Below are positions 27,685 through 50,020 of a DNA stretch of 64,000 nucleotides, one piece after another. How positions within the stretch are numbered: position 1 is the stretch's first letter; each line of letters starts with the position of its first letter. This DNA comes from Alphaproteobacteria bacterium (lineage in GTDB: Bacteria > Pseudomonadota > Alphaproteobacteria > UBA2966). The DNA lies in NCBI GenBank assembly GCA_964291395.2, contig OZ219856.1, positions 736,001 to 800,000 on the forward strand. The letters are read 5' to 3'. The notes below the pieces were generated by a model. It was not told where the DNA came from. It made no database searches and saw nothing but the letters and a program-made list of their open reading frames with translations. A program made the position numbers and the translations under genes.

Positions 27685-27842
27685 ACATTCGCTTAAGTCG
27701 GAAAGGCTGCAGGGGGGCAACCTCTTGTAAGGGTTGATCTCAATCGGTTGAATACGGCGCCGATTTTGAGAGTGGGTGGATCGTACCCGAATTGAGCCGG
27801 CGTGCCGGCGCGATCTCGATGGAAATTTCAAGGGGGTTGGAG

Positions 27843-29468
<1,626 letters not shown>

Positions 29469-29611
29469 GGTGTAGCGCGGCGGCCAGTGCCGGCAAGGCC
29501 GGTGACGATCTCCGGGCGCCGGCTGTAGCGAGTCGAATCTCTGGAGTCGTTGCGAGCGGTTCGCGGTTGGACTCCAACGGATCGACCCCTGAAACCGGCG
29601 TTGAAACCCCT

Positions 29612-29963
29612 TCAGGCGTCCGCCTACCAGCTTCCGGATGGACTCGACCTTGGCCGACGTCCGTCCGCCGAACGTCGCCACTTGGATGGTCACTGGGATG
29701 TTCGCCAGATCCGCGAGCTCGACATCCCGTCCGCCCATTCCCAAGACCACGAGGATATCGAGCAGCTCCTTCTCCGTGACCGGGTGCGGATGGTTCCATG
29801 TGCGGCCCTCGGCCTTGAACGAGAAGGTGATGTCGTAGCCGCCGTCCTCTGCCTCGGCGACCGATGCGATGGTGCCGGTGTGGCTGCCCATCGGCGGGAC
29901 CGAACCCTTCTTCGGCGCCCACGCCTTCTTCGGCCTGGACCTCGTCGGTACTGTCAACGTCAT
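29612..29963 (-). CDS. Terminal phage gene, possible DUF669/OB-fold ssDNA-binding-like protein; stop apparently lost by a 1-nt indel near 29625
   Basis: ATGA-coupled to upstream gene; PMGSHTGTIASV..YDITFSF..LLDILVVLG..ELADLANIPVTIQV; frame then runs antisense through aceB. Confidence 0.45.
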
Positions 29964-31132
29964 CGGTTTCTCTCCCTGCTGCGTTCCACGAGATCGGGCG
30001 GCAGCCCGTACACGGCCGTGAGCTGCGGCGGCGACGGCGGCCAGAGGTAGCCCACGTCCGACCGGAATATCAGCGCATCGCCGGGCTGCATCGTCACCAG
30101 GCCGTGGCCCTCGATCGTGATGCCCGTGAAGTTGTCCGGGTTCAGGCACACCACGACCCTGACACGGTGGGTCTCGCTCTCCGCAAGGTCCACCGCCCAG
30201 CCGGCCGCTCCACGGGCGAAGCCGATGGCGGACCGGTGTTCGTGCCCGGCGAAGGCGCAACCGGAGATCATGCCAGGCGTCGCATCCGCCACGATCCTGC
30301 GCAGTCGGCTGGTGAGCCAGCTCGGCGGTCCCGATGCCTCGGTGTCGACGACGGTCCGGCACTCGCCAGCGGACAACAGGCTCGGGAACAGAAAGTGCGT
30401 GCGGGGTTCGTGGGCCAGGCGCTGGCTGGTGCAGCCGGCCTCCATCAGGTGCTCCACGTCGCCGAGGCGGGGTCGGCCGCCGAGCTCATCCAGGCCGGCA
30501 TCGGCCAATAGGTCGATCTCCCTCGACGAGTGCGTGCGCACCGGCTCGAAGGTGGAATACCGCATGAACAGCATTCTCCCTTCCCGTCCCGGATAGGGCG
30601 GCCGCCAGTGATGCACGTCGTGCCCGGCGAACAGCAGCGCCCGATCGGCCGAGGAATTGTCGAGCACGTCGACGGCGCCGTCCGGCCTCTCGACGTGGAG
30701 CGGCCAGCCGCCGTCGACGTCGAGTGCTGCGGGCCACGAGAGGAGGTATTTCGAGCCGGCGCCGATGTCCCGGTGCCGGGTCATGGCGACCCCGGCGAGC
30801 GTCACCAGCACGCCGGCGTAGCTCAGCCAGGCGCGGCGCTCCAGAACACGCGACACCTCGCCCTCGAGCGCGCGGCCGACGGCCGCCACGACCGGCTCGC
30901 TGTTGCACCACCAGCCGCCGGGATAGCTGTTGCTGAGCGGATAGCTGCCCGGGCGGTCGCGGTACGGCAGGGCCGCCGCCCAGCGCCGGACGCCCTCGTA
31001 CATGCCGGAAGGCAAGGCCGATCGCACGTCGACCCATTCCCGCGTCGCGTCGGCCTCCGGGTGGTTCGCGCCGCCGAACAGCTCGTCCATGCTCCCGACG
31101 TAGGACTGAAAGGCGGACCGGTCGAACGTCAT
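29960..31132 (-). CDS. 2OG-Fe(II) oxygenase-like protein with a second degenerate domain
   Basis: SYA..MTRHRD (HxD)..WPL..LLFAGHDVHHWRPPYPG..LFMRY; C-half LLSAGEC..VVCLN..PGDALIF. Confidence 0.65.
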   Translation of the reverse strand: MTFDRSAFQSYVGSMDELFGGANHPEADATREWVDVRSALPSGMYEGVRRWAAALPYRDRPGSYPLSNSYPGGWWCNSEPVVAAVGRALEGEVSRVLERRAWLSYAGVLVTLAGVAMTRHRDIGAGSKYLLSWPAALDVDGGWPLHVERPDGAVDVLDNSSADRALLFAGHDVHHWRPPYPGREGRMLFMRYSTFEPVRTHSSREIDLLADAGLDELGGRPRLGDVEHLMEAGCTSQRLAHEPRTHFLFPSLLSAGECRTVVDTEASGPPSWLTSRLRRIVADATPGMISGCAFAGHEHRSAIGFARGAAGWAVDLAESETHRVRVVVCLNPDNFTGITIEGHGLVTMQPGDALIFRSDVGYLWPPSPPQLTAVYGLPPDLVERSRERNR

Positions 31133-31710
31133 GACGCTGCCGGACGCCAAACCGTGGCGCTGTGGTAGTCGATGGCCTCGAGCTCGGCCAACGTCGTGGC
31201 GGCTTTCACCTTGGCCTCGAGGGCATGGCAGACGCCGATCATCCGCTTGCGCTCGGCATCCTTGAGCGCGCTCTCTGCGGCCGACAGCGAGAAGCGCGCC
31301 TCCCATTCCTTGTTGCGGTCGTGGGCGGCCTCCGGGTGGTAGATCCGGGCGATGTTCCGCGCCGCATAGACGTTCACGACCTCCGGCAGGAACGTGTCCT
31401 TCATCCATTGCCGGTAGACGGCCGTCGCCTTCGCCCAGGTGGGCTTGGGCCCCACGTCGACGGATTCGCGGCTCCAGCCCCAGGTGCCGTCGGCGTTCCA
31501 GACCGGCGTGATGACGGGGTCCCACGACAGGACCTTCCACTTTTCCGCGGTGAGCTCCCAATCCTCGATCGTCTCGAGGTCGGGGAAGGGCCCGGTCGTC
31601 GGCGCCGTCCAGTCCGTGCCGGGGTCCGGCGTGACCAGGCCCGACACTTCCAGCCCTCCGCCGTCCCGAAGCGCCTGCTTGACCCGCCGCCATTTCCTTC
31701 GCGTCGCCAT
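31129..31710 (-). CDS. Putative tail-fibre assembly chaperone
   Basis: Follows fibre; C-terminal LEAKVKAATTLAELEAI motif. Confidence 0.5.
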   Translation of the reverse strand: MATRRKWRRVKQALRDGGGLEVSGLVTPDPGTDWTAPTTGPFPDLETIEDWELTAEKWKVLSWDPVITPVWNADGTWGWSRESVDVGPKPTWAKATAVYRQWMKDTFLPEVVNVYAARNIARIYHPEAAHDRNKEWEARFSLSAAESALKDAERKRMIGVCHALEAKVKAATTLAELEAIDYHSATVWRPAAS

Positions 31711-34700
31711 CACGGACCGCTGTACGTGTAGGAGGTAATCCGGAACTCGCCACGGCGCTCGCCGTTTTTCCCGGAGGTGAGATTGGCCCACGAGGGACTG
31801 TGGGCGCTGACCGATGGGGGGTATCTGCCGCTCGTCGACGTGACCGCAATTCGAATCTGGTCGTAAAGGCCCGACCGGCTCACCGTCGCTTCCGTCCCGG
31901 CCGTCCCGCACGGTGAAGGTGCTGGTGGTGCCGTCATCGTAGGTGACGGTGACCACGCCGGTGGAGCTGTTGCGGCTTATCGACCTGATGCCCCGGCCAT
32001 CGGCCCCGGCCGCCCCCGCAGGGATGTCGATGCGGGCGCCGTCGGAGAAGACGACCCTGATCGCCCCGCCCGACAGGGTGGTGGTCGAGGAGATGTCGAT
32101 GGATGTTCCGTCCGCGCCGTCCTGCACCGTGAAGCTGTCGCTTGACGCAGTTGTCGGTGTAGCGGATCGTCACCAGGCCTGTCGTCGAGCGGTCGATCGA
32201 GCTGATGCCGACGCCGTCGGCGCCGTCCGCCAACGTGAAGGTCGCGGACGCCGAGCCGTCGTCGTAGGCCACCGTGACCACGCCGGTGGTGCTGTTGCGC
32301 GTGATCGACCTGATGCCCCGCCCCGCCTGGCCGGCGCTGATGGTGAAGCTCGTCCCGTCCGAGAAGGTGACCGTCACGTTCCCTTCGGTGTCGGTCGCGA
32401 AGCCGGCGGTGATGCTGGAGCCGTCCGCGCCGTCGACGACCGTGAAGGTATCCGTCGTGCCGTCGTCGAAGGTCAGCGTGACGACGCCGGTGTCCTCGTC
32501 GCGCGAGACGCTGAGGATGCCCCTGCCTTCGAGCAGCGTGGGCGCCCCCCAGTTGAACTGCCGACCCGCCCCGGACGCGGACGCCGATGCTGACCCAGAT
32601 GCGCCCCCGCCCGGCCGGCACGCTCGACACCCGGTCGTACCAGCCGGCCGGGACGCCGTTCGAGTTGGCCGGCTCCGCCGGCTTCGACGCCGCGCGCCTG
32701 TAGATGATGTTGATGGCGCCCTCGTCGGACACCAGGACCGGCCCGACCCAGTCGTTCCCGTCCGCGTTCCAGGTGTCCCGGCGGGTGCCGTCGGCGGCCT
32801 CGTCCGACGCGGTCGCCGTGATCGCCCAGACCGCCTCGCTCTGCGTGCGGCCGGGCCATGGGAACACCCATCCCGCAGGCGGCGTGAAGACCCCGGTGCG
32901 GAAGTCGAAGGACCCTCTCGCTCCCGGGTTCGCCGGCGCCGCCGCGGTGACGCTCTGCTTGCGGTAGGCGGTGAGCTCCTTCCGGCTCACGGCGTCCTGG
33001 CCCTCGAGCTGGGTCGGCAGCCCCCACACGTAGTTCTCCGAGCCGCGCCGGCGGACGCCGATCGACACGTAGATGGGGTGGGCCCCCGCGGGCACGTCGC
33101 CGACGAGATCGTGCCAGCCGGCCGGTATCCCCTGGGAGGGAGCCGGGGCCTCCTCCGGCTGCGCCTCGAACCGCCTGTAGATGATGTTGAGGTCGTCGGC
33201 GTCCCCGACGACGACCGGTTCCGACCAGTCGTCCTCGTCAGGCGCTCCAGATGTCGCCCTCGCCCCGGTCGGCGGTGGCCGTGGAGGCATAGACGACCTG
33301 CGACCTGTCGTAGGCCGGGAACTTCGGCCCCACCCAGCCCGCCGGCGGGGTCAGGGCCCGCCCCGCGAAGTCGTAGCTGCCGCCGGTCGGGCGGTCGGGC
33401 GCCTCGGAGCCGGCCTCCTGCACCCTGTACACCTCGACTTCCTCGAAGTCCGTGCCCTTGCGCGGCAGCGGCCCCAGGGCGGCGGTCACGAACGTCGGAA
33501 GCGTCCGGCGGCCGTCGGCGAGGACGGCGGCGATGGCGAAGCGCCACGTCCCGGCGCCCGGGCGGTCCATGAACTCCGCCGGCGAGGACAGCAGCAGACC
33601 GTCGTGCAGGTCCGCCATGCTGTCCCATTCCGCTGCGGCGGCGGTCCCGTCCTCGGCGTAGCGGATGCGGTACCCGACCACGTCCGGCGACGGGTGCCGG
33701 CTCCAGGTCGCGATCCGCACGCCGAGCGCGTTGTCGGTGACGGAGAACCCGCCCACCGGCTCCAGGTGGGGATCGGCGGCGCCGGCGAGCGGGTTCCACG
33801 TCAGGTCGGCCGTCCGGTGCCCGTAGTAGGCGTCGACCTCGTCGCGGGCGATGAAGCGCAGCCGGTCCTCGCCGGCCGGCTCCTTGCCGGTGATCCGGAG
33901 CTTCACGAGGTCCGCCTCGGCCGTGAAGCACATGAAGCGGTAGGCGTGCGGGTCGTCGTCCACGCCCATGGGCGCGGCCGGCAGCGCCGCGTCCAGCACG
34001 ATCGCGCCGGCGCCGGCCCGCGTGTAGGCGCGCTTCAGGACCGCGTCGTCGAGGTCCCAGATCCAGGCGAACCCGTCGCCGGCGACGTCCCGCGAGAGCG
34101 TGCATGTGCGCCGGTCGGCCGAGATCGCCAGGAGGCGGCCGCCGGCGCCCGAGCCCACGAGGCCGTGGCTCATGCCGACGACGTCGCCGCGCGCGATGCC
34201 CATCCCCTCTCCGATGTGCATCTCCCAGCCGATCGTGCGGATGTGGTAGAACTGCGCCGCCACCGCCCGGTTGAGCTCCTTGGCCGCGTGGTCGCCGTCG
34301 GTGATGCCGTCGAGCTCGACCGTGACCGGCCGCTCCGGGGTCGCCGCGCCGGGCACCGAACGCCGGATCTGGTTGACCTGGTAATCGCTCGTCCGGTCGA
34401 TGAAGTTGCCGACCACCTCGTCGGCGAGTCCCTCGTTGTCGTAGGTGACCCCGAGGGTGCCTGCCACCACGTTGGCGGGCGTCACGAGCGACGTCATCGG
34501 CCGGCCGGCGTCCTCCCACAGCACTCCCCATTTGCCGGACTGCCTGTCTATCGCCCCCCAGCCGCACTGGCAGATGAGCTCGAGGGCGGCCGCGTGGTCG
34601 CGGCCGTCCTCGATGACGAGGTTGCACTCGAGGCCTTGCGCCCTGCAGTGCTCGGCGAAGCCCTGGATCGAGGGGAAGTCGATGCGGCTGTCGGGGAGGC

Positions 34701-36102
34701 CCATGCCGGCGACGAGCCGCCCGTCGATCCGCCAGCCCCGGAGGTAGCGGAGCAGCACGTCGCCGCAGTTCCCGGTGACCTGGCCGGGCACCCACCGCGT
34801 GCCGTCCCAATGGGCGGCCCGCTGCGAGGCGATGGCGTTGACCGCCTCCATCCGGCCGTAGAGCTGTCCCGTGGCCTTGGCCCGGACGGCGAGGGGATTG
34901 CGGCCGTCGAAGTCCGTCGCGTCGTCCTGGAACGCCCGGAAGGCGGCGACGCTGGCCCGGAAGATCAGGCGGTCGTCCTCCTCGTCGTGCTCGGTGAGCA
35001 GCGTGGCGCGCACGTCCCACGCCGCGGCGCGGCCGGTGGCGAACCTGAACGACCTGCGGACGGCGTTGCGCGCCTCGGCGCCGTCCGGTGTGACGAGGAC
35101 GAGGTCGCGCGACTGCCAGGGGCCCGCGGTGCCCGACTCCCGCCACTCGGCGCGGATCTCCGTATCGCGGCCGTCGAGGCTGCCGTTGCCCTGGGTGCGG
35201 AAGTGCTGCGCGGTGAGATCGAAGGCGACGGCCGTCGTGTCCGCGGCCGTCGTCCTCTGGAGCGGCGCGTCGTGCTCGAGGTCGCCGCCGGGGATGGTGT
35301 CGACGTTGCCGGCGACGAGCGTGACGCGGGAGACGTCCTGCTGGGTCCGGACGTCGTCGAAACTGCCGAAGGCGGTCTCGCCCATGTGCAGCGTGCCGAC
35401 GTCGAGGTCGCCGATCCCGAAATCGAAGATCTGATTCAGATACTGGTCGCCCTCCTCGTCGAACTCGGTGTATTCCCGCGCCGCGAGGTCCGGGAACACC
35501 CGGTGCGTGCCGAGCACGAGCTGGAGCGGCTCGTAGGGCCGCGCGCGGTTGGCGCCGCCGGAGATGCTGTACTGCGGCCTGGGCTGGCCGGTGTCCTGCG
35601 GTTTGGGCAGGCGGGGCGGGAACAGCGAGTTGACGATCAGCAGCCCGCCGAGGCCGATGGCCGCGGTGAGGAGCTGGCCGGCGATCGGTCTCCGCCGCCA
35701 CGATCGCCCGAACGAGCCGAAGCCGGCACCCAGAATGCCGCCCGCCAGGTACGGCGCCGCCACGAGCACCGCGATCGAGAGGATCACGGCGATGGGGTTG
35801 GAGCCCTCGCCGCCGGCGACGGCGGCGCGCACGTTGACGACGTCGCCCTCGCGCAAGGTGACGTCCCGCCACGCCGCGCGCGCGACGAGGGCGCCGTTGA
35901 CCGAGGCCACGGCCGGCTCCCACTCGGGCAGGCGGTCGCGGAACACCTCGTCGAGCGTCTGGCCCGCCACGGCGACGACCGCGCACCGGCCCTCGGTGGT
36001 GATCGGGTGCGGCCGGAAGTCGGCGAGGATCTCGGCGCCGGTCTTCGGACGGGACGCGTCATGCGTCCCGCGCATGTCGCGGGGCGGCATGGTCAGGTCC
36101 AT
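31710..36102 (-). pseudogene. Tail tip/host-specificity protein (I+J-like) fused to repeat fibre; split by frameshifts near 33241, 32560, 32149 and 31880
   Basis: GEGSNP, GGANRARPYEPLQLVLGTHRVFPD TipJ motifs; internal repeats continue across the frame breaks. Confidence 0.8.
31885..32530 (-). repeat. Six ~33-37 aa fibre repeats GRGIxSIxR..TGVVTVTYDDGT..TFTV.DGAD
   Basis: Read across ORF-track frames 31129..32127 and 31934..32377 and its upstream in-frame extension. Confidence 0.8.
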
Positions 36103-36482
36103 CTGTAGAATCCCACGAGCTCGAGGTTGACGGTCGCCAGCCGCCGCAGCGGCGTGAATATCGCCCCCGTCCCGGCGAGGTTGTGCAGGACCCACCCCTC
36201 GTTACCGGTCTCGGCATACACGCCGATGTGGCTCCCCAGCGACCGGCGGGAGCCGAGGACGCGCATCAGCACGGCGTCGTGCTCGCGCGGGCTCTCCGTG
36301 GGCACGGCCCATTCCGCGCCGAGCCCGGCCACCCGCTCGGGCGGCATCCGCCGCCACTCCCGCTCGGAGGGGAGCGCGATCTCGATGCCGAGCCGGTCGT
36401 GGACGACGTCGCGCACCAGGTCCGCGCAGTCGTACCTTCCCGCCTCCCACGGCCGCCCGAGATAGGCCTCCGTCCAGTGCAT
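36093..36482 (-). CDS. NlpC/P60 tail assembly protein (K-like)
   Basis: YLGRPW..GRYDCADLV..HIGVY..VLH. Confidence 0.85.
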   Translation of the reverse strand: MHWTEAYLGRPWEAGRYDCADLVRDVVHDRLGIEIALPSEREWRRMPPERVAGLGAEWAVPTESPREHDAVLMRVLGSRRSLGSHIGVYAETGNEGWVLHNLAGTGAIFTPLRRLATVNLELVGFYRWT

Positions 36483-39114: not shown

Positions 39115-39498
39115 CTAGCGGGCGAGCACGAGGTCGAGGGTGCCGGCGGCGATGCGGAACGGCCGGCCCGTCACCAGGGTCACCGGCGCCACCAGCTCCA
39201 TCCGCCCGTACCAGGTGTTGCCGAAGCGGATGCCGAGGTGGTTCACCACGGTGCCCGCCTCGGCGGCCGCCGGCGTGAAGACGTCGATGGCGTTGTCATT
39301 GTCGGACGTCGCCGCGTTCGCCGACCAGCCGGCCGCCGCCTCGGTGTGGCGGGCGTAGTTCCGGCCGGCGCCGGTCGCGAGCTCGTTGTCCGCGCCGGCC
39401 GCGCCGGGGTCGTCGGTGTGGACGCTGATGGTCACCGACCGGGTCGCGAGGTAGGCCGCCAGGAAGGCGAGCCCGCTGTCGTCTACTTGGGTGGTCAT
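39115..39498 (-). CDS. Small phage minor tail protein, distant paralog of 38705-39097
   Basis: SVHTDDPG..NEL..NYAR..HLGI..FRIAAGTL. Confidence 0.6.
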   Translation of the reverse strand: MTTQVDDSGLAFLAAYLATRSVTISVHTDDPGAAGADNELATGAGRNYARHTEAAAGWSANAATSDNDNAIDVFTPAAAEAGTVVNHLGIRFGNTWYGRMELVAPVTLVTGRPFRIAAGTLDLVLAR

Positions 39499-39510: not shown

Positions 39511-39866
39511 CTAGTGAAACCCCTCGAGCTCCAGCTCGAAGTCCCATGTGCGCTTCGCCCGCCGCGCACCCGCGCGGTGTAGCGGATCGCCCCGGCGCCG
39601 CCCCGGACGCGCACGCGGCGCGTCACGGCGTCCTCGGTGTCGCGCCAGTCGAACCAGGCGTGCGCGCTCTCCCGCGCCCAGGCCCGGAAGCGCACCAGGT
39701 CCGCGTCCGAGGCGAGCCAGCCCCGCACGCGCCTGAGGTCGAGCGCGCGGGTGTGCCGCTTGCCCTGGCGGACCGCGCCGTCGTCGAACCTGGTGCGCGC
39801 GACGTCCGCATCCTGGCCGAGTCCGTAGCCGTCAGCCGCGACGTTCGCGTAGGCCGGCCAGGTCAC
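39511..39866 (-). pseudogene. Distal tail (gpM-like) protein, frameshift near 39555
   Basis: MTWPAY..RTRFDDG..FRAW..WFDW; natural end RTWDFELELEGFH* lies in another frame. Confidence 0.65.
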
Positions 39867-42427
39867 GGCCGCCTCGACACGGCGTGGCGGAAGGCCTGCG
39901 TCACCGGGCCGTTCCCCCGGGCGTCGCGGAGCAGCACGGTGACGATGAACTTCTCGCCGTCCCAGCGGACGCCGTCGTCCGTGGCCTCCTGGGGGGTGCC
40001 GCCCTCGTTGATCAGCCGCACCTCGAGGTTGGGCGCCCCGCCCATGGCCCGCATCTGCTCCGGCGTGAACACGCCCTCGCCGCGGCGCAGGATCGCCGGG
40101 ACCTCGTCGGAGGCCAATCCGCCATGGGGGAAGCGCGGCGCGCCGGCGAAGGCGCGCGGGTCGACGCCGTGGCGCACGCTGCCGCCGGGGGCGCCGGCGA
40201 CGCCGCCCGCGTGGAGGAACAGGTGCCCGCCGACCTCGCTCACGCCGCGGAACGAGCCGCCGCCGAGGCCGAGCAGGCCGCCGAGGGCGGCCGAGAGCGG
40301 GCCGGTGATGGCCCGCTGGACGGCGATGCGCGCGAGGTCCGCGATGATGGAATCGGCGAGCGAGCGGAACTCGATCTCGCCGGTGCGCGCGAAGTTCACC
40401 AGCGCGTCCTCCATGCCGCGCGCGGCGTCGGCCGTCGCCCGCTCGATCTCGTCGAAGGTGTCGAGAGCGTCATCGGCATAGCGTGAGAGTGCGCCGGAGA
40501 TTGCCTCGCTCCCGCCCGCCGCCGCCCCGGCCTGGGCCTCGGCCACCTGCCGCGCGGCAGCGGTGATGTGCTCCGCCGCGATTCGGTGCACCTCCGCGGC
40601 GCGCTCGGCGTAGTCCTCATGGGCCGGCAGCAGCTCGCGTAGGGCCACCAGGGTCCCGGTCCGCCAGCGGTCGGTCTCGACGAGGGTGCGGTCGAACGGC
40701 GTCGCGAGGGCCAGTGCCATGTCCGCGAGCCCGCGCTCGAGGTCGGCGAGCCGCGCGGCCTCCTCCTCGTAACGCGCGCGGTCGCGTGCCGCGTCCTCCT
40801 CGGCGACCGCCTCGCGCTCGAGCCGCGCCTTCCGGCGCACCGCCAGGACCGCCACCTCGATCGCGGCCTCGTCGTGCTTGCCGGCCTGGCGGAGCGCCGC
40901 GAGTTCCTCGAGCTGCTGCCGCTCGGCCCGATCGACGAGGTGGATGCGGTCGAGGGTGAGCCGCGCGACCGCGTCCTCGGCGCGCCTGCGGATGGCGAGC
41001 ACAGCCGCCGCCCGCTCGGCGTCCCGCGCGGCATCGCCGTCGTCGCCTCCGCGCTGCTGCTGCAGCGGCGCCGGCGGGAAGGTGAAGTCGGGGTCGTCAG
41101 GCAGGATGGAGAGGACGCGGAATCGGGGCTCGAGGGCGGCGTCGCGCAGGCGCCGGAGCTCCTCGATCTGCCGGCGCAGCGGCTCGATGGTGCCGCGCCG
41201 CCTCCCCCGGGGATCCGGACGATCGGCCACTGCCTCCAGTCTGTCGATCCGCTCCTGAAGCCGGTCGATCTCTTGCGCCGCCCGGTTGGCGATCGCCTCG
41301 AGCGCCGCGGCGCCGGCGTCGCCGGAGGTCATCAGGCGGCGCTCGACCTCCTCCAGTTCGACGGCCGCCGTCCGCGCCAGGGTCAGGGTCGGCCTGGGGC
41401 CGCGCGGTCCTTGCGCCGGCCTATCGAGGGCATCGCGCAGCTCGATGTAGCGCTCCAGGTCGTGCTGCACGGCGTCGGGCACCGGGGTGTGGCCCGAGAG
41501 CGCATCGATGAACCGTGTGGCCAGGTCCGTGGCCTTCGCAAGATTTTCCAACAGGCCGGACCGGGCGAACGATTCCCGCAGCCGCTCGATGGCGTTACCG
41601 AGCCGGGCGAAGCTGGCCTCGGCGTCCTGCGTCGCGTAGGGGACGCCTTCGGCCACGTGCTCGCGCAGCGCCCGGGCGAAGCGCGGCAGGAACTCGTCGG
41701 ACAGCAGCTCGCCGGCGGCGAGCATGCGGTCGAGCTCGCGCGTCGATACGCCTATGGCGCGGGCTGCCACCTGGAAGGCGTCCGGCAGCCGCTCGCCGAG
41801 CTGCCCGCGCAGATCCTCGGCTGAGACCTTGCCTTTCGACATGATCTGCTCGAGGGCCAGCAGGGCGCCGGACTGCTGCTCGGCGCTGAGCCCCATGACC
41901 CGGCCGGCCTCGGCGACGGCGAGGAAGATCTCCCGGGTCGCCTGCCCCTCGAGCGCCGTCCCGCGCGAGGCGTTGGCGAGCCCGGAATAGGCGTTCGCCG
42001 TGGTGAGGAAGTCGATGCCGAGGCGGTCCGCTTCCCGGCGCACGAACTGCAGCTCGCGGGCGCCCGCGGCGATCGAGCCGGCGGCGAAGCGGAAGCGCCG
42101 GTCCAGGCGCTCGGCCGCCAGGCCGCTCTCGATCAGCGCCTCGGGGAGCTCGGCCAGCGTCGCAATCCCGCGCGAGAGCGCGGCGGCCGAAAGGCCGGCG
42201 GCGAAGTTCCCGAAAAATATGTCCATCCGCGACAGCGACCGGCTCGCTTTCCTGGCCTCGCGGTCGATGCGCTCGATGCCGCGGGCCGCTTGCCCGGCCT
42301 GCCTCCCCGCCCGCCCGGCGGCCGTGCCGGTGCCGCGCAGCTCCCTTTCCAGCCGGTCAAGTTGGCGGACCGCCTGGTTCAGGTCGGCGCGGACCCGGAG
42401 AGCGAGGTTGAGGTTGCGGTCGGGCAC
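39863..42427 (-). CDS. Tail tape measure protein
   Basis: ALEQIMSKGKVSAEDLRGQLGERLP; helical body; DEVPAILRRGEGV C-terminus. Confidence 0.92.
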   Translation of the reverse strand: MPDRNLNLALRVRADLNQAVRQLDRLERELRGTGTAAGRAGRQAGQAARGIERIDREARKASRSLSRMDIFFGNFAAGLSAAALSRGIATLAELPEALIESGLAAERLDRRFRFAAGSIAAGARELQFVRREADRLGIDFLTTANAYSGLANASRGTALEGQATREIFLAVAEAGRVMGLSAEQQSGALLALEQIMSKGKVSAEDLRGQLGERLPDAFQVAARAIGVSTRELDRMLAAGELLSDEFLPRFARALREHVAEGVPYATQDAEASFARLGNAIERLRESFARSGLLENLAKATDLATRFIDALSGHTPVPDAVQHDLERYIELRDALDRPAQGPRGPRPTLTLARTAAVELEEVERRLMTSGDAGAAALEAIANRAAQEIDRLQERIDRLEAVADRPDPRGRRRGTIEPLRRQIEELRRLRDAALEPRFRVLSILPDDPDFTFPPAPLQQQRGGDDGDAARDAERAAAVLAIRRRAEDAVARLTLDRIHLVDRAERQQLEELAALRQAGKHDEAAIEVAVLAVRRKARLEREAVAEEDAARDRARYEEEAARLADLERGLADMALALATPFDRTLVETDRWRTGTLVALRELLPAHEDYAERAAEVHRIAAEHITAAARQVAEAQAGAAAGGSEAISGALSRYADDALDTFDEIERATADAARGMEDALVNFARTGEIEFRSLADSIIADLARIAVQRAITGPLSAALGGLLGLGGGSFRGVSEVGGHLFLHAGGVAGAPGGSVRHGVDPRAFAGAPRFPHGGLASDEVPAILRRGEGVFTPEQMRAMGGAPNLEVRLINEGGTPQEATDDGVRWDGEKFIVTVLLRDARGNGPVTQAFRHAVSRRP

Positions 42428-44620: not shown

Positions 44621-45028
44621 TCACCAGCCCCCGAGCCGGTCCCGGGTGAAGGTCCGGCGCCCCGGCGTCGCCGTGCCCGCGTCGGCGCGGACCGCCGGCC
44701 GCCCCTGCGAGTCGACGAGACGGACGCTGCCGTCCGCGATGTCGCCGAGCTGCTTGCGGGCCGCCGCGGCGTTGGCGCTCACCCGCTCCGGCGGGGCGTC
44801 GTCGTAGAGCAGGCCGCGGGCGAGGTCGCACTGAATCCTGAGGAGCGTCGGCCACGCGCCGGCGGGCAGGGGCAGGCGGAAGGCCGGCGCCAGGCGGCCG
44901 TCGATCTCCGCCGCCGCGTCGGCGAGCACCGCCGTGATCCGGGCGGCGCCGTCCGCGCCGTCGGCGAGCTTGAGGATCTCGGCGGCGCCGAAGCGGCTTT
45001 CCAGGTCCCGGCGCGTGGCGTAGGTCAT
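44621..45028 (-). CDS. Mu gp36/DUF1320 head-tail adaptor
   Basis: MTYAT..DL..RFG..EIDG.L..LPL..CDLAR..L. Confidence 0.88.
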   Translation of the reverse strand: MTYATRRDLESRFGAAEILKLADGADGAARITAVLADAAAEIDGRLAPAFRLPLPAGAWPTLLRIQCDLARGLLYDDAPPERVSANAAAARKQLGDIADGSVRLVDSQGRPAVRADAGTATPGRRTFTRDRLGGW

Positions 45029-45458: not shown

Positions 45459-46361
45459 CTAGGCGAGCCAGGGAACGACGACGAGCTCGGCGGTGCCGCG
45501 CCAGACGTTGGTCGCCCCGTTCGCGTCGCGCTCCGCGTTGAGGATTTCGAGCCCCGCTTCCCGCAGCGCCGGCGGCACCACCAGATGCGTCGGCACGATG
45601 CCGAGGGGGCGGCCGTAATCGCCCTTCATGCCTTCGAGGGCCTGGTAGGCCGCCTTGAAGTTGGCCTTGTCGAGGGTCTGCTTCGAGCCGTAGGCCTTCT
45701 GCCAGAGACCGAAGCCGACGTTGGACCGCGCGTGCACGCCGTAGAGAAACTCCCGGCGCATGAAGACGTTATCGTCCTCCTCGCGGTCCTTGCGGACGAT
45801 GTTGTCGGCGCGCTTGCGCTGCTGGAAGACGAGCGGCTTCGCCGTCCCCCGCAGATCCATCAGGAACCAGGCGGTGCCGTTGCCGCCGCCCGAATTGGAA
45901 ACGGTGGTCGCGCCGCCGTCCGCCTCGAGCACCGGATGGTCGGTGTCGAAGAAGTACTGGCCGTCGTAGCAGGTCTTGGCGAAGCCGTCCTTGAGCAGCT
46001 TCCACACGAGCTCGTCGGGATGGGCCGCGACCGCCTCGCCCAGCGCCGTGAACATCGGCGCGTAGACGCCGTACCTGTCGTCCTCGATGTGGTTGCGGTC
46101 GACCTCGATCGTGTCCTCGAAGTCGCGGTTGCGCAGCGTGTAGCCGTGCTGGCGCAGGTTCTCGATCACGCGCTCGCCGACCCATTCCTTGAGGCCCGGG
46201 ATCTTGCCGAGCCAGGCGTAGACCTCCTCGGCCGTGCTCGACGGCACGGTCATTGCGACCTGCGTGTACTGGCTGTTCGCCTGCATGGCGGCGAGGCCCG
46301 TCCTGAAGGCGGCGTTGTAGCTGGCGAACAGGGTGTCCATGTTGGCGCGGTTGATGAGCAT
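45459..46361 (-). CDS. Mu-like major capsid protein T
   Basis: VPSSTAEEVYAWLG..EWVGER..IEDD..CYDGQYFFDTDHP..GFGLWQ. Confidence 0.95.
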   Translation of the reverse strand: MLINRANMDTLFASYNAAFRTGLAAMQANSQYTQVAMTVPSSTAEEVYAWLGKIPGLKEWVGERVIENLRQHGYTLRNRDFEDTIEVDRNHIEDDRYGVYAPMFTALGEAVAAHPDELVWKLLKDGFAKTCYDGQYFFDTDHPVLEADGGATTVSNSGGGNGTAWFLMDLRGTAKPLVFQQRKRADNIVRKDREEDDNVFMRREFLYGVHARSNVGFGLWQKAYGSKQTLDKANFKAAYQALEGMKGDYGRPLGIVPTHLVVPPALREAGLEILNAERDANGATNVWRGTAELVVVPWLA

Positions 46362-46812: not shown

Positions 46813-47766
46813 TCAGGCCTCCTCGGTCTGCGCCGCGAGCGCCTTCCGGGACGCCCGGAAGTCCTCCTCGCTGACGCCGGTGGCGCGGCAGACCGCGCGT
46901 TCCTCGGCGGTGAGCGCGTCGCCGCCTTCGCCCGGCGCGGCCGCGGGAACCGCCCGCCCGTCGCCGAGGATCGCCGGCGCGCCCTCGACGAACTCGGCGA
47001 AGCCGGCCGCGTCCTTCCTGGCGTAGCCGAGCGCCCAGTCCCGGCTCGCCGGCGTGACCTTGCCGGCCTTCACCGCCGCGTCGACGGCGGCTGTCGCGCG
47101 CGCCTCGGCGCCCTCGGTCTCGAGCCGGGCCAGCGTCTCGCGCAGCCGGTCGAACTCGGCGCGCGGCACGAACTCGTCGGGGTCGGGGTCGGGGTCGCCG
47201 CCGGCCGCGGCGGCGGCCTCGAGGATCTCCGCCTCGCCGGCCTCGTCGGCGAGGCCCAGGGCCGTCCTGAGCTTGTCGAGGTCCATGTCGGTCTCCGTTC
47301 GTGGTTGGGTGGATGCGATCGCCCGCATGAACATCGCGGGATCGTTGGTGAGCGCGGCGCCGGTGATGCGGCGCACGACGCGGGTGGCGGTCTCGTAGCG
47401 GAACACCGGGCTGACGAAGCGGTACTCGCGGGCCCCGATCATCGCGGCGGCGCGCTCGGTCCACTCGACCTCGCCCCACACCGCCCCGTCGCGCTCGAAC
47501 ACCCGCCTGATCCAGCCGGCCGCCGGCGCGGGCTGGCCGTTGGCGGCGCTGCGGTCGCTCTGGTGGTCGTAGTCGACCGCCAGATCGAGGGCCAGCTCGC
47601 GGGTCGCCGCGACCACGGCGCCGGCGTCCGGATTGTGCCAGGGCGGGCGGCCGTCGTGGGGCCGGGTCGGGATCTCGCCCGCCGGCAGCAGCAGGATCTC
47701 GCGGGGAGGCTGGGCTGCGGCCGGCAGTGCCACCGCCGCGGCCGCGCGTGGGTGTTTCGGGTCCAT
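46813..47766 (-). CDS. Mu-like I protease/scaffold
   Basis: VDYDHQ..PAAGWI..VEWT..EYRFVSPVF..ALTNDP; scaffold-like C-half. Confidence 0.93.
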   Translation of the reverse strand: MDPKHPRAAAAVALPAAAQPPREILLLPAGEIPTRPHDGRPPWHNPDAGAVVAATRELALDLAVDYDHQSDRSAANGQPAPAAGWIRRVFERDGAVWGEVEWTERAAAMIGAREYRFVSPVFRYETATRVVRRITGAALTNDPAMFMRAIASTQPRTETDMDLDKLRTALGLADEAGEAEILEAAAAAGGDPDPDPDEFVPRAEFDRLRETLARLETEGAEARATAAVDAAVKAGKVTPASRDWALGYARKDAAGFAEFVEGAPAILGDGRAVPAAAPGEGGDALTAEERAVCRATGVSEEDFRASRKALAAQTEEA

Positions 47767-47966: not shown

Positions 47967-48715
47967 CTACTGCCGCGCTCCTCCAGTCAGCGACCGCGCG
48001 GTCCATATGACCTCGCCGACGGTCTCCGCGTCGTCGGGCCAGGGCACCGGCGCCCAGGCCGGATGATCGCTCTCCAGAAGCCAGCCGCCGCCGTCGTCCT
48101 TGCCGGCGCGCTTGGCGATCAGGCCGTCCCCGGTTCTCAGCACGTAGACGCGGCCCCGGCGCACAGGCGCCGCCGCGTGCGCGTGCGATCCACCAGGATC
48201 GAGCAGCCGTCCGGCAAGGCCGGTTCCATCGATTCGCCCGTCACCCCGATCACCACGCAGCGGGCCGGATCGAGGCCGCGCCGGTCCAGCCAGTCGCGGC
48301 GGAACCAGAGCCGGCCCACCACCTCCTCCGACGCCGCGTCCGCGCCGCCGCCCGCGGCGGCGGCCAGTTCGACGACGTCCACCGGGCGGGCGCCGGCAAC
48401 GTCGTCCGCGTCGTTCGCCGGCGCCAGGTCCGCGGCCCGGGCGGCCCGCGCCTGCAGCCGCTCCAGCTCGGCGGCGACCTCGCGCAACTGCTTCCTGATC
48501 GCGCCGTGGTCCGGCCCCGCGCGCGGCGGGCCGACGTAGAACTCGAGACCGAGGGCGTCCGCCAGCTCGACGGCGCGCGAGAGACGCGGGTCGTGGCCGA
48601 CCAGGACGCTGCGGATGGCGTCCCTGGGCAGCCCCGCCTCCACGGCGGTTCCGGCGAGCGACCGGTCGGCCAGCGCCGTCCTCAGGGCTTCCCGAAACTC
48701 CTCCAGCACGCTCAT
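47967..48715 (-). pseudogene. CI-like repressor (HTH + S24 peptidase), frameshifted by an 8-bp insertion at 48158-48170
   Basis: HTH..PRLSRAVELADALG; VTGESMEP; catalytic AKR and VGEVIW lie in the next frame. Confidence 0.85.
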
Positions 48716-48718
48716 GCA

Positions 48719-48824
48719 TGGCATATATGCCACGATCAGGGGGGAAACGAAAGGCGTCGAAAAAATTCCATTCCCTCTTGCGCGTATGTCGAATGTATGC
48801 AATATATCGTTGCATGTTTTCGAC
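48719..48824. promoter_or_regulatory. Divergent cI/early promoter-operator region
   Basis: Palindrome TGGCATATATGCCA (48719-48732); GTCGAA-N3-ATGCA at 48788-48801 and inverted at 48811-48824; TTGCGC-16-CAATAT. Confidence 0.6.
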
Positions 48825-48942
48825 GGACCGGATCGAATGCCTGACCGCGCTTTACCTCGGGGCGGGCGGCTGCGGGCGCGGCCCGGCGGGATCGTCGACG
48901 ATGTCCGGGCGGCCGCCTCGGGTGCCGCGGGGCCATGGCTGA
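48814..48942 (+). pseudogene. Truncated Cro/Ner-like first early gene (probable deletion junction)
   Basis: Leaderless MFSTDRIECLTALYL.. then low-complexity tail running into mor. Confidence 0.4.
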
Positions 48943-49303
48943 CGCGCCGCTGCCCGGCGTGCTCGCCGAGGTCGAGACGGTCGCCGGACGCGAGGCGGCC
49001 CTCGGCCTCGCGCTGGCGCTCGGCGGCCAGTCGATCCACGTCCCGCGGCCGGAAAATCTCCACGCCGGTCATCCCCTGGCCGTGGCGGCCGGGGCGGGCG
49101 CCGGGGCGATCGCCGAGTACTTCGCGGGCGAGAGCGTCTACGTGCCGCACGCGAGGTCCGCGCTCGTCCTGCACCTGACCGAAATCGGGCACGGCACCCG
49201 CCAGATCGCCGCCCGCCTCGGCATTTCCCCCCGCGCCGTGCGCCAGCACCGCCGTCGGCAGCGCGGGGGCGTGTTACCCTCTCACGGGTCCACGGCCTCG
49301 TAG
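48935..49303 (+). CDS. Mor/C-family transcription activator
   Basis: LPGVLAEV..G..AAL.LA..GGQSIHVP..GE.VYVP..IAARLGIS.RAV. Confidence 0.85.
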   Translation: MADAPLPGVLAEVETVAGREAALGLALALGGQSIHVPRPENLHAGHPLAVAAGAGAGAIAEYFAGESVYVPHARSALVLHLTEIGHGTRQIAARLGISPRAVRQHRRRQRGGVLPSHGSTAS

Positions 49304-49376
49304 CGCGCGCCGTTCGGCCGGTCGACCCCGTTGCGGGAGGAGGGCGCGCGTGCGCCTTCGCGACCTTGGAGACGCG

Positions 49377-49868
49377 ATGATGAACGAGTTTGCGGAGATG
49401 TATGCGCCGCGGGACGAACGTCCCTTCGAGGCCAGATACCGGGCCGCTTGCCACTGCGAGGCGGTGCGCTACGAAGTCTGCGCCGATCCGGTCGACGCCA
49501 AGATCTGTCACTGCCCCGTCTGCCGGAAATTGCACGGCGCGCCGATGCAGTGGGCGGCGATCTTTCACAAGCACCACGTCAGGTTCGTGGCGGGGATCGA
49601 TCGCCTTCGCTTCTACAACAGCGGTCTCGACGAGCCGGCGAGGCTCCTCCCGTGCAAGGTCGGTTGCGCCCTGTGCGGCACGCCGATCGCCGACGAGGGC
49701 CGCCGGATGTGGCTGGCGTTTCCCTCGCTCTTCGATTTCGGGGCGCCGCCGCAGGTCCCGGAGCCCTTCAGGCCGACCTGTCACATCTTCTACGGCGCCC
49801 GCATGATCGACGTGCACGACGGTCTGCCCAAATGGTCGGGCCACAGGAACGACTCGGTCCTCCTGTAG
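49377..49868 (+). CDS. GFA (CENP-V) family protein
   Basis: CHCEAV..CHC..CRK..C..CGTPI..PTCHIFY. Confidence 0.9.
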   Translation: MMNEFAEMYAPRDERPFEARYRAACHCEAVRYEVCADPVDAKICHCPVCRKLHGAPMQWAAIFHKHHVRFVAGIDRLRFYNSGLDEPARLLPCKVGCALCGTPIADEGRRMWLAFPSLFDFGAPPQVPEPFRPTCHIFYGARMIDVHDGLPKWSGHRNDSVLL

Positions 49869-49887
49869 GCTTGTCCGCGCGCACGCC

Positions 49888-49927
49888 CCGACACGCAACC
49901 ATCACGAATTCGTCACTGAACCGCAAC
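49888..49927 (+). promoter_or_regulatory. Pho-box-like array (four 7-mers at 11-bp period)
   Basis: CCGACAC-4-CCATCAC-4-TCGTCAC-4-CCGCAAC upstream of phoX. Confidence 0.65.
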
Positions 49928-50020
49928 GGTTCGTCGCTATTAGGAACGACGGGAGCCGCGACCGCGCGGGCCCGTCTCGTTTTCGTTCCGACCATTCAAG
50001 TCGCCTCAGGGGAGTGGAGA

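What the first reader, a model, noticed from the sequence alone, without database searches (positions are those of the whole stretch)
29612..31132. 2OG-Fe(II) oxygenase plus OB-fold-like gene at the end of the late operon, where Mu has com/mom
Seen: chaperone, oxygenase and terminal gene are chained by ATGA overlaps (31129-31132, 29960-29963). The oxygenase has HRD plus a distal HHWR and a second degenerate domain lacking HxD. Known: Mu ends with the DNA-modification gene mom, and similar oxygenases occur near fibre genes in marine phages. Inference: either an undescribed DNA-modification pair (oxygenase plus ssDNA-binding partner) or an enzyme that hydroxylates the Pro-rich fibre and tail repeats.
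Basis: partly seen in the sequence, partly recalled or inferred. Interest (0 to 1): 0.7.

Follow-up and report, generated by a model that had tools for sequence, protein, structure and literature searches.

The report
Phage tail-operon oxygenase with barrel partner
A broken-up Mu-like prophage in a sponge-associated bacterium ends its tail-fibre operon with a two-domain iron/2-oxoglutarate oxygenase (one domain intact, one dead) and a small DNA-binding-like barrel protein; the enzyme most likely modifies the phage's own fibre proteins, but no chemistry is shown.

Summary
The observation mostly holds. Gene 29960-31132(-) encodes a 390-aa tandem double-stranded beta-helix protein. Its N-domain has a family-invariant H120-R-D122...H175-W-R177...R191 site. 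Its C-domain is prolyl-4-hydroxylase-like but has lost its metal and 2OG ligands, which distant relatives keep. Both ATGA overlaps are real.

The last gene is a 114-aa OB-like barrel (DUF669/PrgE-like by fold only). In this window a 7-nt insertion (29623-29629) puts its TGA (29614-29612) out of frame, so the ORF runs on to 27828. All 4 metagenome runs laid and all 11 database variants lack the insertion.

The element is a Mu-like siphovirus prophage, now split and defective.

One distant homologue (29% identity, another bacterial class) again sits directly behind J and fibre genes with an ATGA overlap. There the fibre ends in a poly-proline tail and no OB gene follows.

So oxygenase-fibre linkage recurs, while the oxygenase-OB pair is lineage-specific. 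This favours fibre-protein tailoring (about 0.4) over a mom-like DNA-modification pair (about 0.1).

Verdict: a new variant of the known phage oxygenase theme, of moderate interest.

The parts
29960..31132 (-). Tandem-DSBH oxygenase gene, 390 aa (P0001), intact
   Evidence: Translation. AF2 model pLDDT 68. Both domains have a DSBH fold. Eight full-length variants at 90-96% identity are all intact.
30533..31051 (-). N-terminal catalytic-type DSBH domain (residues about 28-200)
   Evidence: VIA-align: 2rg4_A Z 10.9, AviO1 4xaa Z 9.8. phrog_2954 E 2.7e-7. About 200-aa phage relatives.
30767..30775 (-). H120-R121-D122 (HxD metal ligands)
   Evidence: Invariant in 14 of 14 and in 8 of 8 close variants.
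30602..30622 (-). H171-D-V-H-H175-W-R177 (distal His motif)
   Evidence: H175 and W176 invariant, R177 nearly invariant. The cyanophage relative has the same H-W-R.
30560..30562 (-). R191 of R-Y-S, candidate 2OG-binding Arg on the last core strand
   Evidence: Nearly invariant. Lies in predicted strand 184-193. Its role is inferred.
29972..30418 (-). C-terminal prolyl-4-hydroxylase-like DSBH domain, ligands lost (pseudo-enzyme domain)
   Evidence: 5c5t_A Z 12.2, PHD2 Z 11.8, P. putida P4H Z 11.7. Relatives carry Pfam 2OG-FeII_Oxy_3 with HxD...H...R. The window protein has no Pfam hit at E<=1.
29612..29963 (-). Terminal gene: 114-aa OB-like barrel protein in relatives; in the window the stop is lost
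   Evidence: Model pLDDT 81.6, pTM 0.74. PrgE 8s4s_A Z 6.1 and OB folds. DUF669 proteins in BFVD.
29623..29629 (.). 7-nt insertion specific to this assembly; puts TGA 29614-29612 out of frame
   Evidence: 'left out 7' at 29623 in every contig covering it, in X19, X1, X2 and X7.
31129..31132 (-). ATGA stop/start overlap, upstream gene to oxygenase
29960..29963 (-). ATGA stop/start overlap, oxygenase to terminal gene
31129..31710 (-).
   Evidence: No significant family hit. Homology with relatives resumes below 31751.
31752..31883 (-). Hypervariable C-terminal tail of the fibre (44 codons, 8 Pro)
   Evidence: Replaced by 131 unalignable letters in X1, X2 and X7 (table 5). Translation.
31884..33290 (-). 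Tail fibre with CFSR-like beta-repeats joined by short G-x-y linkers; read in three frames in the window
   Evidence: Three-frame reading. CFSR E 1.5e-4, below cut-off. 1 nt at 32140 is absent in X19, X2 and X7.
33238..36195 (-). Central tail fibre / tip attachment protein J-like gene
   Evidence: phrog_31 E 2e-56; FNIII-A_GpJ E 1e-9. Homologous to L026 J (E 1e-7).
29484..29529 (.). Variable spot between the host malate synthase end and the prophage end
   Evidence: X1 has 1056 other letters here. X2 has a 22-nt insertion behind 29529. Imperfect 21-nt direct repeats at 29462-29482 and 29515-29535.

Best explanation
Gene 29960-31132(-) encodes a tandem double-stranded beta-helix protein. It fuses a phage-type 2OG/Fe(II) oxygenase domain at the N-terminus to a prolyl-4-hydroxylase-type domain at the C-terminus. 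The N-domain site is H120-x-D122...H175...R191. The C-domain has lost its iron and 2OG ligands in this lineage.

It is the next-to-last gene of the tail operon of a Mu-like siphovirus prophage and is translationally coupled to the gene before it.

Most likely it is a protein hydroxylase that tailors the phage's own fibre module in the cytoplasm during assembly. The target would be the fibre's variable C-terminal tail or its assembly factor. The N-domain would do the chemistry and the dead P4H-like domain would serve as a docking module, as the non-catalytic second DSBH does in OGFOD1/Tpa1.

The last gene encodes a 114-aa OB-like barrel with a basic N-terminal tail. It is cargo specific to this phage lineage and probably binds nucleic acid. 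No functional tie to the oxygenase is shown.

Shown: fold, motifs, architecture, gene order, and recurrence of the fibre linkage. Inferred: activity, substrate, and the role of the dead domain.
For: Fold. Both domains are DSBH. The C-domain matches 5c5t_A at Z 12.2. The N-domain matches 2rg4_A at Z 10.9. The Foldseek top hits are the tandem-DSBH proteins OGFOD1 (4nhy, E 4e-8) and Tpa1.

Site. HRD, HW and P179 are invariant in 14 of 14; R177 and R191 are nearly so. They are intact in 8 of 8 close variants.

C-domain ancestry. Nine of 32 scanned relatives carry Pfam 2OG-FeII_Oxy_3 at the C-terminus. The family profile hits PKHD hydroxylase and B. anthracis P4H by sequence, E 7e-5 to 7e-4. All 6 close-subfamily members have Tyr or Phe at the distal His position and lack the Arg.

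Linkage. In the window the order is J, fibre, unknown gene, then the oxygenase by ATGA overlap. In L026 (Gammaproteobacteria MAG, 29% identity) the order is J (phrog_31 E 9e-26), then a fibre-like protein ending DPPPPPPPPPPPRPPRPPPPPPPSQLP, then the oxygenase by ATGA overlap, with an intact C-domain.

A cyanophage two-domain relative (hhalign 98.1%, E 9e-14, 328 columns) sits before four annotated glycosyltransferase genes, one of them family 25.

Published precedent for tail-collar or collagen-like proteins as substrates of co-encoded 2OG dioxygenases: Iyer et al. 2010, PMC2938197 (passages read).

Of 21 listed differences between populations inside the gene, 11 are synonymous and 10 are not. 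Chance would give roughly three in four non-synonymous. This is a partial list and only indicative.
Against: No activity or modified residue is shown.

The active-site loops 116-126 and 171-177 have pLDDT under 50 in the model, so ligand geometry was not checked.

The P4H-like domain is dead here, and no strongly Pro-rich tract was found in a coding frame of this phage.

The protein just upstream is not homologous to the L026 fibre.

Context could be read for only one independent tail-operon homologue (L026) and one cyanophage; the contigs of the other homologues could not be fetched.

The N-domain's structural neighbours (AviO1, ThoJ, PtlH, HrmJ, halogenases) mostly act on small molecules or tethered amino acids.

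The prophage is split and several of its genes are frameshifted in this assembly, so the gene may no longer serve any phage.
Confidence: 0.4

Rival explanations
1. Nucleic-acid modification or repair pair at the Mu 'mom' position. The oxygenase would oxidise a base in phage or host DNA/RNA (AlkB- or TET/JBP-like chemistry), and the OB-fold protein would deliver or hold single-stranded substrate.
For: The terminal protein is OB-like. PrgE 8s4s_A gives Z 6.1 with 89 residues aligned, followed by SSB, PriB and RPA folds at Z about 4-5.6. Seven of the 50 BFVD rows are DUF669 proteins and one is an SSB. An ESM neighbour cluster has DUF669 on 17% of members. DUF669 proteins are SSBs (PMC4889955, passage; PMC13687109, abstract). 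The protein has a basic N-terminal tail. The two genes overlap by ATGA. The position matches that of com/mom in Mu (recalled).
Against: The OB gene was found only with the cluster at 90% identity or more (1 hit among 9 candidates; 11 members). It is absent downstream of the L026 oxygenase. There is no DUF669 hit by sequence even at E<=10, and the protein lacks the acidic C-tail noted for DUF669 SSBs. Similarity to AlkB (3khb Z 10.0) and TET (5cg8 Z 9.4) involves mainly the dead C-domain and ranks below the P4H hits. No methyltransferase or other DNA-modification gene was seen among the ORFs scanned in this block.
Confidence: 0.1
2. Auxiliary ('moron') oxygenase acting on a small molecule, sugar or host component rather than on a virion protein, carried at the variable right end of the prophage like the oxygenases in cyanophage islands.
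For: N-domain neighbours are small-molecule or sugar oxygenases (AviO1 Z 9.8, PtlH 9.0, HrmJ 8.6, halogenases 8.5). The cyanophage two-domain relative lies in an island with glycosyltransferases, an aminotransferase-like gene, a radical-SAM gene and other oxygenases. Single-domain relatives (phrog_2954) lie among replication genes in cyanomyovirus-like contigs. The gene is kept intact in 8 of 8 full-length variants although the prophage is defective.
Against: The gene is translationally coupled inside the late tail operon in two distant lineages. There is no promoter-like site of its own in 29300-30100. No biosynthetic partner genes were seen here.
Confidence: 0.25
3. Relic without present function. 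The genes are decaying leftovers of a dead prophage, and the apparent conservation only reflects recent common descent of the sponge-associated populations.
For: The prophage is split. TerS, TerL and portal lie about 26 kb away on the other strand. No Mu-type transposase domain was found (control silent). Frame breaks occur in the J/fibre gene, the repressor and the terminal gene of this assembly. In X1 the prophage part differs at 110 of 2222 positions against 6 of 584 in the adjoining host gene.
Against: The oxygenase is full length with every motif residue intact in 8 of 8 variants, and the OB protein is 114 aa in 11 of 11. The listed differences are enriched for synonymous changes. The frame breaks checked (29623, 32140) are peculiar to this assembly and could be assembly errors.
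Confidence: 0.2

Closest known systems
OGFOD1 / yeast Tpa1 (ribosomal prolyl hydroxylases; PDB 4nhy, 4nhk)
   Same: Two DSBH domains in one chain, with the N-terminal one catalytic and the C-terminal one lacking the metal site. These are the top Foldseek hits (E 4e-8 to 4e-7).
   Different: TM-score is only about 0.26-0.28 for the whole chain. In OGFOD1/Tpa1 the catalytic N-domain is the P4H-like one (recalled); here the P4H-like domain is C-terminal and dead. There is no sequence relationship, and this is a phage tail-operon gene.
PBCV-1 viral collagen prolyl 4-hydroxylase (vCPH, PDB 5c5t) and bacterial P4Hs (B. anthracis 3itq/5hv0; P. putida 4iw3)
   Same: Best structural match of the C-domain (Z 12.2). 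The family profile hits P4Hs by sequence. In the L026 relative a poly-Pro tail is encoded just upstream. This parallels vCPH and that virus's Pro-rich repeats (the latter recalled).
   Different: The window's C-domain has lost His, His and Arg. It has an extra N-terminal oxygenase domain. This phage has no strongly Pro-rich substrate candidate.
Cyanophage 2OG-Fe(II) oxygenases (PHROG 2954 / PHROG 61 types; tandem dioxygenase arrays such as Syn9, Iyer et al. 2010, PMC2938197)
   Same: The N-domain hits phrog_2954. A two-domain cyanophage relative exists. Separate Oxy_3 and phrog_2954 genes lie side by side in L003.
   Different: Here the two types are fused. The gene sits at the end of a Mu-like tail operon in a prophage of a heterotroph, and one site has decayed. 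The PHROG label 'ferrochelatase' does not fit the HxD...HWR site seen here.
DUF669 phage SSBs and PrgE of plasmid pCF10 (PDB 8s4s)
   Same: Small OB-like barrel with a helical insert. PrgE gives Z 6.1. DUF669 proteins appear among BFVD hits with TM about 0.31-0.38 normalised to the target.
   Different: No sequence hit. It is shorter (114 aa), has no acidic C-tail, and lies behind tail genes rather than in a replication or recombination module.
Phage Mu com/mom
   Same: Position only: the last genes at the right end of a Mu-type late region (Mu map recalled).
   Different: No Pfam or PHROG hit links these proteins to Mom or Com; no direct comparison with Mom or Com sequences was made. Mom is not a 2OG oxygenase (recalled).

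Membership tests
2OG/Fe(II)-dependent oxygenase superfamily (N-domain) | Double-stranded beta-helix core | tested here: met
   Model residues 22-200 align to 2rg4_A (Z 10.9, 152 residues, rmsd 4.2) and AviO1 4xaa (Z 9.8, 161 residues).
2OG/Fe(II)-dependent oxygenase superfamily (N-domain) | HxD/E...H facial triad | tested here: met
   H120, D122 and H175 are invariant in 14 of 14. This is by sequence only; those loops have pLDDT under 50, so geometry was not checked.
2OG/Fe(II)-dependent oxygenase superfamily (N-domain) | Basic residue binding the 2OG C5 carboxylate on the last core strand | tested here: inconclusive
   R191 (R-Y-S) is nearly invariant and lies in strand 184-193. Its contact with 2OG was not modelled.
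2OG/Fe(II)-dependent oxygenase superfamily (N-domain) | 2OG-dependent turnover | not testable with these tools
   Needs an enzyme assay.
Prolyl 4-hydroxylase / PKHD type (Pfam PF13640 2OG-FeII_Oxy_3), C-domain | Match to the family model | tested here: not met
   P0001 has no Pfam family at E<=1. Relatives P0010-14, P0020, P0032, P0050 and P0053 do match.
Prolyl 4-hydroxylase / PKHD type (Pfam PF13640 2OG-FeII_Oxy_3), C-domain | HxD...H triad and Arg/Lys for 2OG | tested here: not met
   W-A-V-D instead of H-x-D, Tyr instead of the distal His, and Arg absent. The fold is retained (Z 12.2 to 5c5t_A).
OGFOD1/Tpa1-type tandem DSBH | Two DSBH domains, first active, second inactive | tested here: met
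   This concerns architecture only.
OGFOD1/Tpa1-type tandem DSBH | Homology of the whole chain | tested here: inconclusive
   Foldseek E 4e-8 but TM 0.26 and 10-11% identity. The order of domain types differs.
AlkB or TET/JBP nucleic-acid oxygenases | Specific family match beyond the generic fold | tested here: inconclusive
   Only generic DSBH similarity: AlkB 3khb Z 10.0 and NgTET1 5cg8 Z 9.4, both below the P4H rows. No Pfam or NCBIfam hit.
DUF669 (PF05037) phage SSB | Match to the family model | tested here: not met
   No Pfam family at E<=10 for P0009.
DUF669 (PF05037) phage SSB | OB-like fold shared with DUF669 members | tested here: inconclusive
   Seven of 50 BFVD rows are DUF669 proteins (best E 9.7e-4, target-normalised TM 0.31-0.38). 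PDB OB folds score Z 6.1 or less.
DUF669 (PF05037) phage SSB | Acidic C-terminal tail; ssDNA binding | tested here: not met
   The C-terminus is ...VESI(R/Q)KPDA in 11 of 11; the tail feature is as described in PMC4889955. Binding itself cannot be tested here.
Mu-like (transposable) phage late region | Mu-type head genes (portal, gpI, gpT, gp36) | tested here: met
   Pfam hits. Portal_Mu E 8e-104 lies in a second fragment of the same contig.
Mu-like (transposable) phage late region | DDE transposase and terminal att repeats | tested here: inconclusive
   PF02914 was not found in the genome, but the control genomes were silent too. The ends were not identified.

The most novel reading that the evidence does not exclude
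The oxygenase's live N-domain and the OB-fold protein would form a nucleic-acid-directed system at the 'mom' position of a Mu-like phage. That would be an oxidative base modification or repair function delivered to single-stranded DNA, chemically unlike any known Mu-family anti-restriction device. A second, less radical reading is compatible with it. A phage tailors its receptor-binding fibre by hydroxylation with a two-domain enzyme whose dead prolyl-hydroxylase domain has become a docking module.
Probability: 0.1. Interest if true: 0.8.

Novelty: new variant of a known kind. Interest (0 to 1): 0.4.

Why it matters
Phage genomes, above all aquatic ones, carry very many 2OG/Fe(II) oxygenase genes whose substrates have never been shown.

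This locus and its distant relative place one fused two-domain type directly behind tail-fibre genes, with translational coupling. In the relative the neighbour is a poly-proline fibre tail. That gives a concrete enzyme-substrate pair to test.

The lineage in this window adds a natural experiment. The prolyl-hydroxylase-type site has decayed and the proline tract is absent, while the other site stays invariant.

If fibre hydroxylation is real, it would be a post-translational layer on phage host recognition.

Tried and rejected
Complex prediction of oxygenase plus 114-aa protein: no verdict (score 0.00). This counts neither way.

Context searches that gave nothing usable:
- The search for related loci with A1 in genome contigs, metagenome contigs and viral contigs (one weak single-domain hit, L003).
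- The search for related loci with A4 in metagenome contigs and viral contigs (L025, single-domain only).
- Single proteins P0013, P0010 and P0011 in viral contigs.
- Of the 3 genome-contig loci from A4, L027 is a chance motif match inside a peptidase S9 gene and L028 has no family hit. Both were dropped.

The genome search:
- None of the 22 other genomes of the order had a match.
- Among 401 genomes of the class, 68 matched, G000 included. Outside G000 every listed match covered the C-domain only, except one N-domain-only match in G064. No two-domain relative was found in those searched.

Other negative results:
- N-domain against shorter proteins: none.
- NCBIfam and PADLOC: no hit for the window's proteins.
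- No promoter- or terminator-like site in 29300-30100.
- No tandem DNA repeats in the fibre region.
- The Pro-rich scan found four stretches, none taken as coding: two are out of frame and two were judged non-coding by position.
- The phrog_5010 'tail assembly chaperone' hit of the 114-aa protein (E 0.22) is not significant.
- Mu-type terminal repeats in the window's right end: GGTTTCA occurs twice at 29590-29608 (my reading), but no case could be made.

Literature searches for a described phage fibre hydroxylation found genome-annotation mentions only (search listings).
Full report
SETTING. The window is host DNA of about 63% G+C. It holds a block of about 72% G+C at roughly 29.6-49.3 kb, with all genes on the minus strand.

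Pfam and PHROG scans give, from high to low coordinates:
- an S24/HTH repressor split over two frames (48137-49249 and 47967-48815);
- Mu gpI protease/scaffold (46813-47766, E 5e-67);
- a cement-like protein;
- Mu gpT capsid (45459-46361, E 2.5e-125);
- Mu gp36 (44621-45028);
- tail terminator, major tail protein and tail chaperone;
- tape measure (39863-42427);
- small tail proteins and a DUF1833 minor tail protein;
- a J-like tip protein (33238-36195);
- a repeat-bearing fibre, an unassigned gene, the oxygenase and the terminal gene.

The flanks are malate synthase (27792-29468, +) and PhoX (49331-51928, +). It is therefore the late half of a Mu-like siphovirus. The finding is indeed at its right end, where Mu itself has com/mom (Mu map recalled).

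THE PROPHAGE IS NOT WHOLE. The only Mu-type portal of the genome lies about 26 kb further on, on the opposite strand (G000:C1:811040-812056, E 8e-104). Small and large terminase genes precede it in another 72% G+C patch. Ordinary host genes fill window 52-64 kb. There is a single gpT in the genome. I read this as one prophage split by an inversion and deletions. No Mu-type transposase domain was found, but that search's controls were silent.

CHECK OF THE OBSERVATION. Both ATGA overlaps exist. Such overlaps are the rule in this operon (39495-39498 and 39863-39866).

The oxygenase ORF from ATG 31132 gives 390 residues with H120-R-D122 and H174-H-W-R177.

From ATG 29963 the frame has no stop until 27828 and runs antisense through malate synthase. 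The TGA at 29614-29612 is in another frame.
- The nearest database protein (92% identical) is 114 aa and ends ...SIQKPDA.
- Taking out the 7 bases at 29623-29629 gives exactly K-P-D-A-TGA.
- Laying contigs of four sponge-metagenome runs from four studies on the region showed these 7 bases 'left out' in every contig that covers the place, 4 of 4 runs.
- All 11 variants in the protein collection are 114 aa and end KPDA.

This assembly has a stop-loss insertion or an assembly error.

The same laying shows three further things.
- One extra base in the window at 32140 is absent in X19, X2 and X7. It explains one of the frame hops in the fibre.
- 31752-31883 is replaced by 131 unalignable letters in X1, X2 and X7.
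- Malate synthase adjoins the terminal gene in X2 and X7, and in X1 with 1056 extra letters between them. The insertion is therefore old and shared among these populations.

THE OXYGENASE. Sequence searches found few relatives:
- 6 at E<=1e-3 in the word-indexed collection;
- 66 cluster representatives with a profile of 7 sequences, of which 7 at E<=1e-30.

The AlphaFold model (pLDDT 68, 7-row alignment) has two beta-rich domains.
- Foldseek's top PDB hits are OGFOD1 and Tpa1, proteins made of two double-stranded beta-helices (E 4e-8 to 4e-7). The whole-chain TM is only about 0.26-0.28.
- VIA-align over 48,161 chains places residues 239-387 with prolyl hydroxylases: PBCV-1 vCPH Z 12.2, Trichoplax PHD Z 11.9, PHD2 Z 11.8, P. 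putida P4H Z 11.7.
- It places residues 22-200 with 2rg4 (Z 10.9), ThoJ (10.4), AviO1 (9.8), PtlH (9.0) and others.

The 14-sequence alignment is the most telling result.
- In the N-domain, H120, R121, D122, H175, W176 and P179 are invariant, and R177 and R191 nearly so.
- In the C-domain, the distant members (about 21-35% identical) have H-x-D, a distal H-R and an R-x-S-L motif. They are recognised by Pfam 2OG-FeII_Oxy_3 (9 of 32 hits scanned).
- All six members of the window's subfamily have lost the distal His (Tyr or Phe) and the Arg. Five of six have also lost the first His.

The family is thus a fusion of a phage-type oxygenase with a P4H-type oxygenase. The N-domain hits phrog_2954 at E 2.7e-7. 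That PHROG's label 'ferrochelatase' does not fit the site. In this lineage the second site is dead.

The family profile reaches PKHD hydroxylase and bacterial P4H sequences in the PDB through the C-domain only (E 7e-5 to 7e-4).

Eight full-length variants from other assemblies (90-96% identical) keep every motif residue.

WHERE RELATIVES SIT. Two were obtained.

(a) L026 is a 3965-nt contig of a Gammaproteobacteria MAG. Its order is:
- a J-like gene (phrog_31, E 9e-26; homologous to the window's J, E 1e-7);
- a fibre-like gene with tail-fibre PHROG hits, whose product ends ...DPPPPPPPPPPPRPPRPPPPPPPSQLP;
- by an ATGA overlap, a 427-aa two-domain oxygenase, identical in its Pfam hit figures to P0012, with an intact C-domain.
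After it come about 65 A+T-rich bases with two TTTCGCGATC words and a convergent gene. No OB gene follows.

(b) In Synechococcus phage S-SCSM2R a 427-aa two-domain relative has both sites intact (hhalign 98.1%, E 9e-14, 328 columns). It precedes four annotated glycosyltransferase genes, one of family 25, inside an island with more oxygenases.

Single-domain relatives of the N-domain occur in cyanomyovirus-like contigs, once next to two separate Oxy_3 genes (L003).

No two-domain relative turned up in the 22 other genomes of the order or in the 401 sampled genomes of the class.

THE TERMINAL PROTEIN. The model is good for a two-row alignment (pLDDT 81.6, pTM 0.74). It is a small barrel with one helix and an N-terminal strand.
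- Against the PDB the best match is PrgE of plasmid pCF10 (Z 6.1, 89 residues). The list below it is dominated by OB folds: SSB, PriB, RPA, Mop, EF-P. All are under the Z of 8 at which the tool warns of common arrangements.
- Against predicted viral structures, 7 of 50 rows are DUF669 proteins and one is an SSB (best E 1.6e-4, query-normalised TM about 0.4-0.5).
- A language-model search independently lists a cluster with DUF669 on 17% of its members.
- DUF669 proteins were predicted to be SSBs (PMC4889955, passage), and one was reported as such (PMC13687109, abstract).
- By sequence the protein matches no family even at E<=10, and it lacks the acidic tail.

'OB-fold-like' therefore stands, with moderate confidence. 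Membership of DUF669 is not shown.

Its homologues were found only in the cluster of variants at 90% identity or more. From matching contig lengths, that cluster shares contigs with the oxygenase variants (inference).

WHAT IT MOST LIKELY DOES. The recurrence of 'J, fibre, ATGA, oxygenase' in two lineages that share only 29% identity and different host classes is the strongest functional clue. So is the poly-proline tail beside the version with a live P4H-type site. It matches the published idea that tail-collar and collagen-like proteins are substrates of co-encoded dioxygenases (PMC2938197). It also matches several earlier unchecked notes of this scan on other phages.

I therefore favour a protein hydroxylase serving the fibre module, at confidence about 0.4. 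In the window's lineage the P4H-type site is dead and no strong proline tract exists. The candidate target is the hypervariable 44-residue fibre tail (8 Pro) or the unassigned upstream protein. The chemistry must come from the N-domain. The dead domain may dock the substrate, as in OGFOD1/Tpa1 (analogy only).

The mom-like DNA-modification pair is not excluded but has no positive support beyond the OB-like fold and gene adjacency (about 0.1). A host- or metabolite-directed accessory role (about 0.25) and simple decay (about 0.2, not exclusive) remain.

The listed inter-population differences inside the gene are 11 synonymous to 10 non-synonymous. This is a partial list, since the tool showed 40 of about 500 differences. 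It hints at purifying selection.

VERDICT. The anatomy is real and mostly as described, apart from the end of the terminal gene. It is a new variant (a fused, half-dead, Mu-tail-linked form) of the known but functionally unsolved class of phage 2OG oxygenases. Interest is moderate. The better experimental entry point is the L026-type pair, with its poly-proline tail and intact second site.

Noticed in passing
G000:C1:807181-812116 (L031 7181-12116), about 26 kb beyond window position 49300, + strand: A second 72% G+C patch holds small terminase, large terminase and the genome's only Mu-type portal, in the opposite orientation to the head/tail block. The prophage seems split by an inversion and has lost its early region.
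   Followed up: partly
G000:C1:1473434-1473577 (L002 about 1500-1645, minus strand): A 48-residue fragment of a second oxygenase copy (…HDVLHWRDPYPGG…), 50% identical to residues 170-217 and closer to the P0005 lineage. It is a remnant without the rest of the gene.
   Followed up: partly
window 33240-33290, about 32570, 32140; 47967-49249: The J/fibre reading hops frame three times, and the S24 repressor domain is split over two ORFs. The extra base at 32140 is absent from three other populations, so at least that break is peculiar to this assembly (mutation or assembly error).
   Followed up: partly
window 29483-29530: Variable spot at the host/prophage border. One population has 1056 other letters here and another a 22-nt insertion. 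It is flanked by imperfect 21-nt direct repeats (29462-29482 and 29515-29535).
   Followed up: no
L026 3717-3780: After the oxygenase stop there are about 65 A+T-rich bases with two TTTCGCGATC words, then a convergent host-like gene. This is possibly a Mu-type right end.
   Followed up: no
L024 (Synechococcus phage S-SCSM2R 228299-234573): The two-domain relative is followed by four annotated glycosyltransferase genes (one of family 25), an aminotransferase-like gene, a radical-SAM gene and another oxygenase. This could be a hydroxylation-plus-glycosylation island.
   Followed up: no
PHROG 2954 (hits in window 30554-30793, L025 2919-3473, L003 4048-4677): The PHROG label 'ferrochelatase' looks like a misnomer. 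P0001, whose residues 114-193 hit it, carries the oxygenase HxD...HWR site and a DSBH fold. I did not inspect the motifs of the L025 and L003 members.
   Followed up: partly
window 28900-31751 against run X1: The host malate synthase part differs at 6 of 584 positions. The adjoining prophage part differs at 110 of 2222, about five times more.
   Followed up: no
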